NCBI GenBank assembly: GCA_964518475.1
Contig: CAZFGR010000001.1
Location: 192,001-256,000 of the forward strand
Length of the DNA stretch: 64,000 bases
Direction of reading: 5' to 3'
Source: an uncultured Nitrososphaerota archaeon
GTDB taxonomy: Archaea > Asgardarchaeota > Njordarchaeia > Njordarchaeales > Njordarchaeaceae
Below the pieces are notes generated by a model that was given only the letters and a program-made list of their open reading frames with translations, was not told the DNA's origin and made no database searches. The stretch's first letter is position 1, and each line of letters opens with the position of its first letter. The position numbers and the translations under genes were made by a program. Shown in pieces: positions 998 through 47,310 of this stretch.

Positions 998-1130
998 GGG
1001 CCGGTAGCTCAGCCCGGGTAGACCGAGCTATCGGGCTCATAGCGTCCGGCTCTTAAACCCACCAGAGTATTACTCTGGTGGGTCTAGAGAAACCGGATGG
1101 TCGCGGGTTCAAATCCCGCCCGGCCCGCCA
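998..1130 (+). tRNA. tRNA-Lys(CTT) with two BHB introns: 1022-1040 (position 22/23) and 1056-1091 (position 37/38)
   Basis: Acceptor stem GGGCCGG/CCGGCCC, encoded CCA, T arm GCGGG-TTCAAAT-CCCGC, anticodon stem TCCGG/CCGGA with CTT at 1052-1054; removing both inserts gives a standard cloverleaf. Confidence 0.92.
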
Positions 1131-34775: not shown

Positions 34776-34865
34776 GCCGCGGTAGCTCAGTGGTAGAGCG
34801 CGGGACTCGTAAAGCATACTCGAGAAATCCCGAGGTCGCGGGTTCGAATCCCGCCCGCGGCTCCA
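34776..34865 (+). tRNA. tRNA-Thr(CGT) with a 15-nt canonical BHB intron (34812-34826)
   Basis: GCCGCGG/CCGCGGC acceptor stem, encoded CCA, central helix CTCG/CGAG. Confidence 0.93.
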
Positions 34866-40741: not shown

Positions 40742-40840
40742 TGGCGGGCCCGGCGGGACTCGAACCCGCGACCGACGGCTTTCCCCGCCACTAATTACTG
40801 TTAGGAGGCCGCCGCTCTATCCTAGCTGAGCTACGGGCCC
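40742..40840 (-). tRNA. tRNA-Arg(CCT) with a 21-nt canonical intron (40781-40801)
   Basis: GGGCCCG acceptor stem, encoded CCA, anticodon CCT at 40805-40803, central helix CTCC/GGGG. Confidence 0.92.
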
Positions 40841-42623: not shown

Positions 42624-42773
42624 TGGTGGGCCCGGGCGGATTTGAACCGCCGACCTCCCGGTGTCTGAGACTATCTAGACTCCGAAGCTATTTATGACAC
42701 TTGACACTTATTATTTTTATCAGGTGAGGCCTCTTATCAGCCGGGCGCTCTAGCCAGGCTGAGCTACGGGCCC
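42624..42773 (-). tRNA. tRNA-Ile(GAT) with a 72-nt canonical intron (42663-42734)
   Basis: GGGCCCG acceptor stem, ACCA end, anticodon stem CCCGG/CCGGG, central helix CTGA/TCAG. Confidence 0.92.
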
Positions 42774-46728: not shown

Positions 46729-47039
46729 CTCTATTCACCGGTACATGATAATATTAACTAAACACTGATCCAAATAAAGAGATAGAAAGATAAACATTAA
46801 ACTTTTTTGGAGACTCTACACTAATCACCAGAAGATAGACACTAAAAGAACAAAGATATAGGGAGATATTATTAATGGAATATGCTCGTAAAGGTACCTT
46901 ATTGTTTATCCTTCTTAATAGGTGGTGAGATAAGTTTGAAAGCTTTGATTTCGAGAGCCCAGAAAAATATGAAATAGCCTTACCTCCTTAGGTGCTTCTT
47001 TTTTCTCCCAATAGTTATCAGGTTGATTAGAAATTAGTG

Positions 47040-47203
47040 CCCGCCCCCGAGGTTTCCGTGTTCGGAATGGGAACGGGCGTGACCCCTCCCCTGTGGCCGC
47101 GTCCCCCTTTAAGGAGGACGCAGCAAGGGCCTTTCCCGCGCCCTCGCGGAGCGCGGTACTCGGTCCCTCGTGGGAGGGCTTAGCTTCCGGCCTCGGGGGC
47201 GGG
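47040..47203 (-). repeat. perfect 13-bp inverted repeat forming the BHB processing stem around the permuted 5S rRNA
   Basis: CCCGCCCCCGAGG (47040-47052) and CCTCGGGGGCGGG (47191-47203). Confidence 0.9.
47054..47184 (-). rRNA. rrf: 5S rRNA, circularly permuted gene (3' half 47184 to about 47113, loop linker, 5' half about 47107 to 47054)
   Basis: All 5S elements are present (helix II GGGGAGGG/CCCTCCC, loop C CCCATTCCGAAC, loop E AGTA/GAA, helix IV with GCGA loop) but in swapped order. Confidence 0.93.
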
Positions 47204-47310
47204 TTCGCCTGCCAACATCATCCATTACTACAGCTCATTCATTTTTAAATTTTATTCTTCTTTTTATTCCTCAATCCAAATTACTGCTTGATTAGTGAAG
47301 GACTGCTGAA

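What the first reader, a model, noticed from the sequence alone, without database searches (positions are those of the whole stretch)
47040..47203. Circularly permuted 5S rRNA gene predicted to be restored by BHB splicing and circularisation
Seen: the minus strand reads [CCCGCCCCCGAGG]-CCGG-AA|GCTAAGCCCTCCC...TTGCTGCGTCCTCC-TTAAA-GGGGGACGCGGCCACAGGGG...CCCATTCCGAAC-ACGG-AA|A-[CCTCGGGGGCGGG]. The canonical 3' half of 5S comes first and the 5' half second. The normal 5'/3' ends (helix I) are joined by a short loop. A perfect 13-bp stem flanks the unit, next to a relaxed BHB (central CCGG/ACGG, 3-nt bulges AAG and AAA). Established: archaeal splicing endonuclease cuts after the second bulge nucleotide and RtcB circularises excised pieces; permuted tRNAs (Thermofilum) and permuted SRP RNA (Thermoproteus) are matured this way. 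Inference: the cuts release 47184-47054 (131 nt), and ligation recreates exactly CCGAACACGGAA-GCTAAG (E. coli A53|G54 equivalent, the helix III bulge). The product is either a covalently closed 5S rRNA or one reopened at the linker. I know of no described permuted 5S gene.
Basis: partly seen in the sequence, partly recalled or inferred. Interest (0 to 1): 0.96.

Follow-up and report, generated by a model that had tools for sequence, protein, structure and literature searches.

The report
Back-to-front 5S rRNA gene, Asgard archaeon
This heat-loving Asgard (Njord-group) archaeon encodes its only 5S ribosomal RNA with the back half first, between tRNA-splicing cut signals, so a normal 5S sequence can arise only by cutting and rejoining, most likely into a 131-nt ring; most Asgard lineages share the layout, which explains why their 5S genes seemed to be missing.

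Summary
Window 47040-47203 (minus strand) holds a circularly permuted 5S rRNA gene: 13-nt arm, CCGG, AAG, 3' half, helix I closed by a 3-nt loop, 5' half, ACGG, AAA, complementary 13-nt arm.

- **Rfam:** the linear 5S model sees only two swapped sub-threshold pieces (24.5 and 21.1 bits).
- **Re-permuted in silico:** the RNA forms 30 of 34 canonical 5S pairs, as good as normal Asgard 5S genes.
- **Own model:** a covariance model built from other families only scores the locus at 121.6 bits (E 4e-33).
- **Copy number:** it is the only 5S-like locus found in the 91%-complete genome.
- **Assembly:** independent metagenome contigs carry the same arrangement.
- **Flanks:** across 38 relatives all 11 flank-stem pairs covary (94.7% paired). 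The predicted ligation always recreates CGGAAG-YUAAG.
- **Enzymes:** the genome encodes RtcB and two EndA paralogues. The same cut rule gives correct anticodon loops for four intron-bearing tRNAs in the window.
- **Distribution:** 89 of 151 sampled Asgard genomes match the permuted model.

No RNA data could be obtained, so cleavage, ligation and the final form (ring or re-opened) remain inferred.

I found no paper describing this. This scan has noted the same layout before, on other Asgard DNA and on this stretch.

The parts
47242..47249 (-). TATA-box-like TTTAAAAA, preceded by an A-rich stretch; putative archaeal promoter about 38 nt upstream of the 5' arm
   Evidence: Read directly. The same TTTAAAAA/TTTATAAAAA word sits at a similar distance upstream in the four other genus members whose upstream flank was printed. 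Function is inferred, and no transcription start was mapped.
47191..47203 (-). 5' arm of the flanking (leader) stem, CCCGCCCCCGAGG; outer helix of the BHB
   Evidence: Perfect 13-bp complement of 47040-47052. The homologous stem covaries in 38 relatives: 11/11 pairs show double changes and 94.7% of cells are paired.
47187..47190 (-). Leader CCGG, 5' strand of the central 4-position helix of the BHB
   Evidence: Pairs with ACGG at 47056-47059 as 3 bp plus G.A. The homologous helix is 90.8% paired in relatives and is a perfect 4 bp (CCGA/UCGG, CCGG/CCGG) in other families.
47184..47186 (-). 5' bulge AAG; predicted EndA cut between 47185 and 47184
   Evidence: Follows from BHB geometry. The same rule gives correct anticodon loops in 4 tRNAs of this window.
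47112..47184 (-). 3' half of 5S rRNA: GCUAAG, helix II 3' strand, loop E (AGUAC), helices IV/V, helix I 3' strand
   Evidence: RF00001 aligns model positions ~50-120 here. Threading onto the consensus structure agrees, as does the R1 alignment.
47109..47111 (-). 3-nt loop UAA capping helix I (13 bp, 47124-47112 with 47108-47096); joins the canonical 3' and 5' ends
   Evidence: Folds. All 22 relatives examined have a 3-4-nt cap, and most are tetraloops such as UUCG and UACG.
47054..47108 (-). 5' half of 5S rRNA: helix I 5' strand, loop A CACAG, helix II 5' strand, helix III with loop C (CCCAUUCCGAAC), ending ACGGAA
   Evidence: RF00001 local hit to model positions 28-51 at 47054-47077.
47053..47055 (-). 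3' bulge AAA; predicted EndA cut between 47054 and 47053
   Evidence: BHB geometry. Three of the four tRNA introns in the window use the same AAA 3' bulge.
47040..47052 (-). 3' arm of the flanking (trailer) stem, CCTCGGGGGCGGG
   Evidence: Sequence conservation in other strains' contigs stops exactly at 47040 and 47204.
47054..47184 (-). Predicted excised and ligated product: 131 nt; the junction ...CCGAACACGGAA-GCUAAGCC... restores canonical 5S continuity
   Evidence: The ligation itself is inferred.

Best explanation
Window 47040-47203 (minus strand) is the genome's single, functional 5S rRNA gene, encoded in circularly permuted order as a standalone transcription unit between a PCNA gene and a class II aminoacyl-tRNA synthetase gene.

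The primary transcript folds so that the leader and trailer form a 13-bp stem. This stem abuts a relaxed bulge-helix-bulge motif: central helix CCGG/ACGG, with 3-nt unpaired segments AAG and AAA.

The proposed steps, all inferred:
1. The tRNA-splicing endonuclease, here probably a heterotetramer of the two EndA paralogues, cuts after the second nucleotide of each bulge.
2. This releases a 131-nt piece, 47184 to 47054.
3. RtcB joins its ends, recreating ...CCGAACACGGAA-GCUAAG..., the normal 5S sequence at the helix III/loop B junction.
4. Because the normal 5' and 3' ends are already joined by a 3-nt hairpin loop on an extended helix I, the product is a covalently closed 5S rRNA. It most likely enters the ribosome as a ring.

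Shown: the gene order, its 5S identity, uniqueness in the genome, conservation and covariation of the processing stem, and presence of the enzymes.

Inferred: cleavage, ligation, and the ring as the final form.
For: 1. Identity. Split, swapped RF00001 hits. Re-permuted, the RNA makes 30/34 consensus pairs and 71/120 consensus identities, while seven normal Asgard 5S genes (49-84 bits) make 25-30/34.

2. Family model. R1 was built from 33 units of other families only. It scores the locus at 121.6 bits, E 3.7e-33, full length.

3. Only copy. Neither RF00001 nor R1 finds another locus in the 2.33-Mb, 91%-complete assembly.

4. Not an artefact. Contigs of independent runs carry 47040-47204 contiguously with 3 differences (X10, 12.8 kb; X3, 2.3 kb). 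An X2 contig spans 47029-47278. X1 tiles the region with 0 differences.

5. Selection on the processing stem. In 38 units, 11/11 flank pairs change on both sides and 94.7% of cells are paired. The covariation score is 0.53 against 0.17 in shuffles (0/500 reach it), and it collapses when the partners are slid. The central helix is 90.8% paired, and helix II, which joins the two halves, covaries in 6/7 pairs. The nearest relative, G002, has an identical core but a compensatory A-U to C-G change in the stem.

6. Product. In all 22 relatives the predicted ligation restores CGGAAG-YYAAG, although the cut register differs by 1 nt between lineages.

7. Enzymes. RtcB scores 500.6 bits. EndA has a catalytic-type paralogue (101.8 bits) and a divergent one (31.1 bits), both with N- and C-terminal domains.

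8. Cut rule. The same geometry finds the anticodon-loop BHBs of the four intron tRNAs in the window and yields 7-nt loops with anticodons CGU, CCU, GAU and CUU.

9. Precedent. The Thermoproteus permuted SRP RNA is cut at a leader/trailer BHB by a heterotetrameric endonuclease and is circular (PMC4731332). Circular 23S rRNA has been reported within archaeal ribosomes (PMC12918454). E. coli tolerates 5S with its native ends connected (PMC7283268).

10. Cap. The helix I caps are 3-4 nt, mostly tetraloops such as UUCG and UACG. They are too short to hold a second BHB, which argues against endonuclease re-opening there.
Against: There is no RNA-level evidence for this organism. No junction read, RNA end or RNase R test exists.

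The BHB in this genus is relaxed. The central helix has only 3 Watson-Crick pairs plus G.A, and there is no inner helix, so the 5' cut site lies in a multiloop rather than a true bulge.

The leader CCGG is near-palindromic, so it can pair with either strand of helix III. RNAalifold prefers a non-BHB alternative.

Both minimum-energy folds mispredict helices II/III, so the precursor conformation is not established.

The assembly is 91% complete in 121 contigs, so a second 5S cannot be strictly excluded for this genome. However, closed Asgard chromosomes show the same picture.

Whether the ring persists in ribosomes is untested.
Confidence: 0.8

Rival explanations
1. The transcript is cut and ligated as above, but the ring is only an intermediate. 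It is re-opened, for example in or near the helix I cap, to give a conventional linear 5S before or after ribosome assembly. This is the classical model for circular pre-16S and pre-23S rRNA.
For: Circular pre-16S/23S rRNAs are widely held to be re-linearised (background in PMC12918454). Pyrococcus 23S is re-opened at another site (PMC7758197). In this genus helix I is 3-4 bp longer than usual, so trimming it would give a normal length.
Against: The linker is only 3-4 nt, most often a tetraloop such as UUCG or UACG. It holds no BHB or other conserved processing signal. Stable tetraloops suggest a retained structural cap. PMC12918454 reports that circular 23S is incorporated into ribosomes, so re-linearisation is not obligatory.
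Confidence: 0.13
2. No ligation occurs. The ribosome uses a permuted linear 5S whose new ends lie at the helix III/loop B junction. This could be the endonuclease-cut form, or the uncut transcript with its ends held together non-covalently by the 13-bp flank stem, acting as an extra helix.
For: Brown-algal mitochondrial 5S rRNAs are permuted in the final product (PMC4267664). The flank stem alone would hold the two halves in place. Covariation of the stem is also expected under this model.
Against: The conserved spacing of the unpaired trinucleotides and the 4-position central helix next to the stem is that of a splicing substrate, as in the window's tRNAs. Relatives conserve exactly the nucleotides needed so that ligation restores CGGAAG-YYAAG, in two different cut registers. 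A structural stem does not require that. RtcB is reported to join the ends produced at BHB cuts and to circularise excised pieces (PMC4731332). A 13-bp helix protruding from helix III has no counterpart in the normal Asgard 5S genes.
Confidence: 0.06
3. The locus is a rearranged pseudogene or an assembly chimera, and the real 5S lies in unassembled sequence.
For: The assembly is a 121-contig MAG, 91% complete with 5.8% contamination. rRNA genes are often missing from MAGs.
Against: The arrangement is contiguous in independent runs. It is conserved with compensatory changes across about 20 families. It is the sole 5S-like locus in single-contig genomes of relatives (G014, G024, G034). Genomes with a normal 5S lack a strong permuted-model hit and vice versa. 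The authors of closed Heimdall genomes could not find a 5S (PMC8813620).
Confidence: 0.01

Closest known systems
Permuted, circular SRP RNA of Thermoproteus tenax / T. uzoniensis (Plagens et al. 2015, eLife, PMC4731332)
   Same: It is a non-tRNA structural RNA gene encoded 3' part first. Leader and trailer pair into a BHB, which a heterotetrameric tRNA-splicing endonuclease cuts, and ligation gives a functional circle. The logic proposed here is the same, and this genome also has two EndA paralogues and RtcB.
   Different: The RNA is different (5S rRNA, a ribosome component). The SRP case is known from Thermoproteus species such as T. tenax and T. uzoniensis, whereas this layout is found in 89 of 151 sampled Asgard genomes over about 20 families. 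For SRP RNA, cleavage and circularity were shown experimentally. Here they are inferred.
Circularly permuted tRNA genes (Cyanidioschyzon merolae, Soma et al. 2007, cited in PMC4267664; Thermofilum permuted tRNAs, from my own knowledge)
   Same: The 3' half precedes the 5' half, and the native ends are joined by a short linker. BHB-type (often relaxed) motifs flank the unit, and it is expressed through a circular RNA (for the citation).
   Different: In tRNAs the circle is an intermediate that is opened at the linker by the tRNA end-processing enzymes. The 3-4-nt 5S cap shows no such processing signal, so the circle may be the final product.
Permuted mitochondrial 5S rRNA of brown algae and other stramenopiles (Rfam mtPerm-5S; Valach et al. 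2014, PMC4267664)
   Same: It is a 5S rRNA whose helix I is replaced by a closed hairpin, so the molecule's ends lie elsewhere.
   Different: In that case only the alpha domain is rearranged, with the ends at the alpha/gamma junction. The RNA stays permuted and linear in the final product, with no BHB and no ligation. No Rfam family other than RF00001 matched the window locus apart from one weak chance-level hit (RF01836, E 4.9), so mtPerm-5S gave no hit.
Circular and permuted large rRNAs of archaea (Pyrococcus furiosus permuted 23S, PMC7758197; circular 23S in ribosomes, PMC12918454)
   Same: A BHB in a processing stem, EndA cleavage, ligation into a circle, and in some cases the circle or a permuted form is found in the ribosome.
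   Different: Those genes are encoded in normal order and the permutation arises only at the RNA level. [quoted passage not shown] Here the gene itself is permuted, so ligation is needed to create the canonical sequence.

Membership tests
5S rRNA (Rfam RF00001) | Full-length match to the covariance model at or above the gathering score (38 bits) in linear gene order | tested here: not met
   No hit at the gathering score. The best matches are 24.5 bits (forced global) and 21.1 bits (model positions 28-51), in swapped order. This is the expected result for a permuted gene.
5S rRNA (Rfam RF00001) | Three-helix-junction fold with helices I-V and the conserved loop C (CCGAAC) and loop E (AGUAC) motifs, after restoring canonical order | tested here: met
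   The re-permuted sequence forms 30/34 consensus pairs and 71/120 consensus identities, equal to or better than seven normal Asgard 5S genes. Both motifs are present. Infernal itself could not be run on the synthetic re-permuted sequence.
5S rRNA (functional gene rather than relic) | Sole copy in the genome, conserved with compensatory changes in helices that join the two halves | tested here: met
   It is the only RF00001 or R1 locus in G000. Helix II covaries in 6/7 pairs, and the tip of helix IV is 100% paired with covariation.
BHB-flanked permuted RNA genes matured by EndA + RtcB (permuted tRNAs, Thermoproteus SRP RNA) | 3' part encoded upstream of 5' part, with the native ends joined by a short linker | tested here: met
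BHB-flanked permuted RNA genes matured by EndA + RtcB | Leader and trailer form a bulge-helix-bulge: outer helix, 4-bp central helix, 3-nt bulges on opposite strands | tested here: inconclusive
   The 13-bp outer helix and both 3-nt unpaired segments are at the right spacing. But the central helix is 3 bp plus G.A, and there is no inner helix, so the motif is relaxed (bulge-helix-loop type). Other families have a perfect 4-bp central helix. PMC4731332 defines a BHB as a central 4-bp helix flanked by at least one 3-nt bulge.
BHB-flanked permuted RNA genes matured by EndA + RtcB | Cuts at the bulges followed by ligation restore the canonical RNA sequence | tested here: met
   The junction CCGAACACGGAA-GCUAAG matches the RF00001 consensus CGGAAGUUAAG. 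The same holds in all 22 relatives. The cut rule was validated on four tRNAs.
BHB-flanked permuted RNA genes matured by EndA + RtcB | Splicing endonuclease and RtcB ligase encoded by the host | tested here: met
   RtcB scores 500.6 bits. There are two EndA paralogues with N- and C-terminal domains.
BHB-flanked permuted RNA genes matured by EndA + RtcB | Junction-spanning RNA, or a circular RNA, detected | not testable with these tools
   No RNA run holding the stretch was listed.
   121.6 bits, E 3.7e-33, model positions 1-156 of 156.
mtPerm-5S (Rfam, stramenopile mitochondria) | Match to the Rfam permuted mitochondrial 5S model | tested here: not met
   The E-value scan of 46950-47300 against all 4227 families returned only RF00001 and one chance hit.

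The most novel reading that the evidence does not exclude
The covalently closed 131-nt ring is the mature 5S rRNA that sits in the ribosome, in this Njord-group archaeon and in most Asgard lineages. These closest archaeal relatives of eukaryotes would then build their large subunit with an end-less 5S, produced obligatorily by the tRNA-splicing machinery.
Probability: 0.55. Interest if true: 0.93.

Novelty: new variant of a known kind. Interest (0 to 1): 0.88.

Why it matters
5S rRNA is universal, and its gene is considered trivially easy to find. Yet the authors of closed Asgard genomes reported that it "could not be predicted" (PMC8813620). The permuted gene explains that gap.

It would make the tRNA-splicing endonuclease and RtcB essential for ribosome biogenesis in these organisms. 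It would also add 5S to the rRNAs that may function as circles, although a 2026 study still lists 5S as the exception.

The consequences are practical as well as conceptual:
- Annotation pipelines and MAG quality standards that require a 5S gene miss it in most Asgard genomes.
- The split between permuted and normal families gives a discrete character for Asgard phylogeny.
- It bears on when the linear, Pol III-type 5S of eukaryotes arose.

Tried and rejected
- **RNA evidence.** No RNA holder was listed for the 281-nt or the 164-nt query. None was listed, which is not the same as none existing. The single read-laying run was therefore used on DNA contigs.
- **Infernal RF00001 on the re-permuted sequence.** The tools search only held sources, so I threaded the sequence onto the consensus structure instead.
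- **Pattern scan of 185,579 species genomes.** About half of the 115 hits were chance matches or ordinary 5S genes preceded by a chance RAG-YAAG word. This includes all 14 DPANN, Nitrososphaerales, Sulfolobaceae, Desulfurococcaceae, Euryarchaeota and haloarchaeal hits I inspected. The idea that the layout extends beyond Asgard-type genomes is therefore not supported by this scan. Some true hits carry non-Asgard names in their records (Crenarchaeota, Nitrososphaerota, Thermoproteota, Bathyarchaeia), but they match Njord-, Jord- or Heimdall-type units.
- **Unconstrained folding.** The single-sequence fold and RNAalifold recover the flank stem, helix I and helices IV/V. They mispredict helices II/III and do not choose the BHB conformer, so energy minimisation alone cannot decide the precursor fold.
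- **One consensus structure for all lineages.** This fails at the BHB because two cut registers exist (offsets 4/2 and 5/1). Only the register shared with this window was tested formally.
- **mtPerm-5S.** No match.
- **Literature.** Searches for 'permuted 5S', 'circular 5S', and 5S plus Asgard plus permuted or splicing endonuclease returned no archaeal case.

Full report
**1. What is in the sequence**

- 5' arm CCCGCCCCCGAGG: 47203-47191
- CCGG: 47190-47187
- AAG: 47186-47184
- 3' half of a 5S rRNA, beginning GCUAAGCC and containing the loop E word AGUAC
- Helix I 3' strand (47124-47112), the 3-nt loop UAA (47111-47109) and helix I 5' strand (47108-47096)
- 5' half, with loop C CCCAUUCCGAAC, ending ACGG (47059-47056)
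- AAA: 47055-47053
- 3' arm CCTCGGGGGCGGG: 47052-47040

Upstream lies a TTTAAAAA word (47249-47242), shared at a similar distance by the genus members whose upstream flank I printed. The unit sits alone in a 690-nt spacer between a PCNA homologue and a class II aminoacyl-tRNA synthetase. It is not in an rRNA operon.

**2. Is it a 5S gene?**

Rfam finds no 5S in the window at the gathering score. In permissive mode it gives two sub-threshold RF00001 pieces in swapped order:
- a forced global alignment of 24.5 bits, whose well-aligned part is model positions 50-120, at 47115-47235;
- a clean local hit to model positions 28-51 (21.1 bits) further downstream, at 47054-47077.

I re-permuted the sequence in a script and aligned it with the RF00001 consensus and with seven ordinary 5S genes of the same phylum, which score 49-84 bits. 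The window's RNA forms 30 of the 34 consensus pairs and shares 71 of 120 consensus residues. The ordinary genes form 25-30 pairs. The predicted junction, CCGAACACGGAA-GCUAAG, reproduces the consensus CGGAAGUUAAG. It falls between model positions 51 and 52, which from my own count corresponds to E. coli A53|G54.

**3. Is it real, and is it the only one?**

Neither RF00001 nor my own model finds another 5S-like locus in the 2.33-Mb assembly, which has 121 contigs and is 91% complete.

The stretch or part of it occurs in runs of 17 studies of hydrothermal and sediment metagenomes. Laying four of them gave these results:
- contigs of 12.8 kb (X10) and 2.3 kb (X3) carry 47040-47204 contiguously with three differences, then diverge;
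- a short X2 contig spans 47029-47278;
- X1, probably the source sample, tiles the region with no difference.

Conservation between strains therefore stops exactly at the two ends of the flanking stem.

**4. Relatives**

In 41 genomes of the phylum only seven have a normal 5S. Most others show two adjacent weak hits. Printing those loci showed the same layout in 22 genomes of many families: stem arm, GAA|AG-YUAAGC, AGUAC, helix I closed by a 3-4-nt loop, GGYCAUAG, CCGAAC-NCGGA, then the complementary arm. The caps are mostly tetraloops, with UUCG in seven and UACG in two.

A pattern specific to the swapped order was scanned over one genome for each of 185,579 species. It returned 115 stretches. 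Those with the stem at the fixed offset carry Asgard names: Njord-, Jord-, Odin-, Baldr-, Heimdall-, Hod-, Hermod-, Frey- and Atabeyarchaeia. The units nearest to this window are from 'Candidatus Njordarchaeota' MAGs. The non-Asgard archaeal hits I inspected are ordinary 5S genes with a chance upstream word.

I built a covariance model (R1) from 33 units of other families, leaving out this genus. It matches 47039-47204 over its full length at 121.6 bits, E 3.7e-33.

Across 151 sampled genomes of the phylum, 89 match at E <= 1e-5, and about 81 of them score 55 bits or more. These come from about 20 families. Three large families (f9, f14, f18) lack strong matches, and their members hold the normal gene. 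In these samples the two states are mutually exclusive.

**5. The processing signal**

In an alignment of 38 units that share this window's cut register, the flanking stem gave these results:
- it covaries at all 11 tested pairs and is paired in 94.7% of cells;
- the whole-structure covariation score is 0.53, against 0.17 for shuffles (0 of 500 reach it);
- sliding the 3' partners by one to three columns collapses the pairing.

These sequences are related, so the shuffle count is not a probability. Even so, each position shows up to six standard pair types, which is hard to explain without selection.

The central helix is 90.8% paired. It is a perfect CCGA/UCGG or CCGG/CCGG in other families. 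In this genus it is CCGG/ACGG, that is 3 bp plus G.A, and there is no inner helix. The motif is therefore of the relaxed, bulge-helix-loop kind.

The nearest relative (G002) has an identical 131-nt core but a compensatory A-U to C-G change in the stem.

A second register exists in Odin-, Jord- and Baldr-type units. There both cuts lie one nucleotide further 5' (junction CGGA|AG), yet the ligated sequence is the same.

**6. Machinery and cut rule**

The genome encodes RtcB (500.6 bits). It also encodes two splicing-endonuclease paralogues, one with a strong catalytic domain (101.8 bits) and one divergent (31.1 bits). This is the make-up of the heterotetrameric enzymes, which PMC4731332 describes as having the most relaxed BHB recognition. 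The assignment to that type is an inference.

As an internal control I applied the same geometric definition to the four intron-bearing tRNAs of the window: outer helix, four central positions, 3-nt bulge, cut after the second bulge nucleotide. It picks out the anticodon-stem BHBs and yields 7-nt anticodon loops with U33 and anticodons CGU, CCU, GAU and CUU. Three of the four use the same AAA 3' bulge as the 5S unit.

**7. Mechanism and its limits**

The best-supported reading has four steps: transcription from its own promoter, pairing of leader and trailer, EndA cuts after 47185 and after 47054, and RtcB ligation into a 131-nt circle whose sequence is a canonical 5S with a capped, extended helix I.

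- Shown: gene order, 5S identity, single copy, reality of the assembly, conservation and covariation of the stem, presence of the enzymes.
- Inferred: cleavage, ligation and the final topology.

No RNA run could be listed for this stretch.

Minimum-energy folding recovers the flank stem, helix I and helices IV/V, with z = -5.76. It does not settle the BHB conformer. The leader CCGG is near-palindromic, and RNAalifold pairs it with the other strand of helix III.

Three points favour the ring as the final product:
- the caps are too short for a second BHB and are often stable tetraloops;
- circular 23S has been reported inside archaeal ribosomes (PMC12918454);
- E. coli ribosomes tolerate a 5S with its native ends connected (PMC7283268).

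I put the ring as the ribosomal form at about 0.55.

**8. Comparison with what is known**

- The closest system is the permuted SRP RNA of Thermoproteus, where BHB cleavage and circularity were shown experimentally (PMC4731332).
- Permuted tRNA genes use the same logic, but their circle is an intermediate.
- Brown-algal mitochondrial 5S rRNAs are permuted in the final product without splicing (PMC4267664).
- Archaeal 16S and 23S circularise from normally ordered genes. A 2026 paper states that 5S does not take part in that pathway.
- Authors of closed Heimdallarchaeum genomes wrote that 5S genes 'could not be predicted' (PMC8813620). Those chromosomes (CP070665, CP070695, CP070760) are among my pattern hits.

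Five full-text searches found no paper describing a permuted or circular archaeal 5S. The library is incomplete, so this is 'not found', not 'does not exist'.

**9. Earlier notes of this scan**

The scan's own records hold 257 notes in at least 135 genomes on permuted Asgard 5S genes, including this very stretch. Several report environmental RNA with the predicted junction in Hod-, Heimdall- and Atabey-type archaea. I could not check those claims and treat them as leads only.

**10. Verdict**

This is a real, conserved, single-copy, circularly permuted 5S rRNA gene. It is a new variant of a known kind of system, BHB-flanked permuted RNA genes, applied to a ribosomal RNA and spread over most of a phylum. 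Interest is high. The RNA-level proof for this lineage is still missing.

Noticed in passing
window 998-1127 (+), 34776-34862 (+), 40745-40840 (-), 42627-42773 (-): All four tRNA genes in the window carry anticodon-loop introns of 15, 21, 72 and 36 nt. The gene at 998-1127 has a second insertion of about 27 nt in the D-arm region. ARAGORN mis-reads the anticodon of three of them and misses the fourth (42627-42773).
   Followed up: partly
L052:7626-7750(-) and L110:4319-4443(-) (Atabeyarchaeia chromosomes CP147779, CP147780): The permuted 5S units of Atabeyarchaeia have about 30 extra nucleotides between the 5' stem arm and the 3' half, with the word CGTGAGAG (CGTGAAAG in L110) repeated on both sides. 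This looks like an additional small intron inside the permuted gene.
   Followed up: no
relatives' units: Two BHB registers exist. Njord-, Heimdall- and Hod-type units would be cut to give CGGAA|G. Odin-, Jord-, Baldr- and Frey-type units would give CGGA|AG. The ligated sequence is the same, so the permutation point has slid by one nucleotide during evolution.
   Followed up: partly
G037, G079, G016, G089, G069, G110: Some Asgard genomes have two matches to the permuted model. One (G110) has four partial copies at contig ends, so the copy number of the permuted gene is not always one.
   Followed up: no
G000 C55:1173-1589 and C18:30073-30752: Besides a full-length RtcB at the start of contig C5, there are RtcB-like fragments. 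One has two in-frame TAA stops, and two lie at a contig end. They could be a broken second copy, an intein-split gene or contamination.
   Followed up: no
L041, L081, L118, L130: Contigs carrying true permuted units of Njord-, Jord- or Heimdall-type are named Crenarchaeota, Nitrososphaerota, Bathyarchaeia or Thermoproteota in their public records. The unit may serve as a marker for mislabelled Asgard bins.
   Followed up: no
window 47187-47190 with 47056-47059 and 47074-47077 (-): The leader CCGG repeats the 5S's own NCGG word, so CGGAA occurs at both ends of the unit. Being near-palindromic, it can pair with either strand of helix III. This hints at an origin by tandem duplication and truncation, and at a conformational switch between the precursor and mature folds.
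   Followed up: partly
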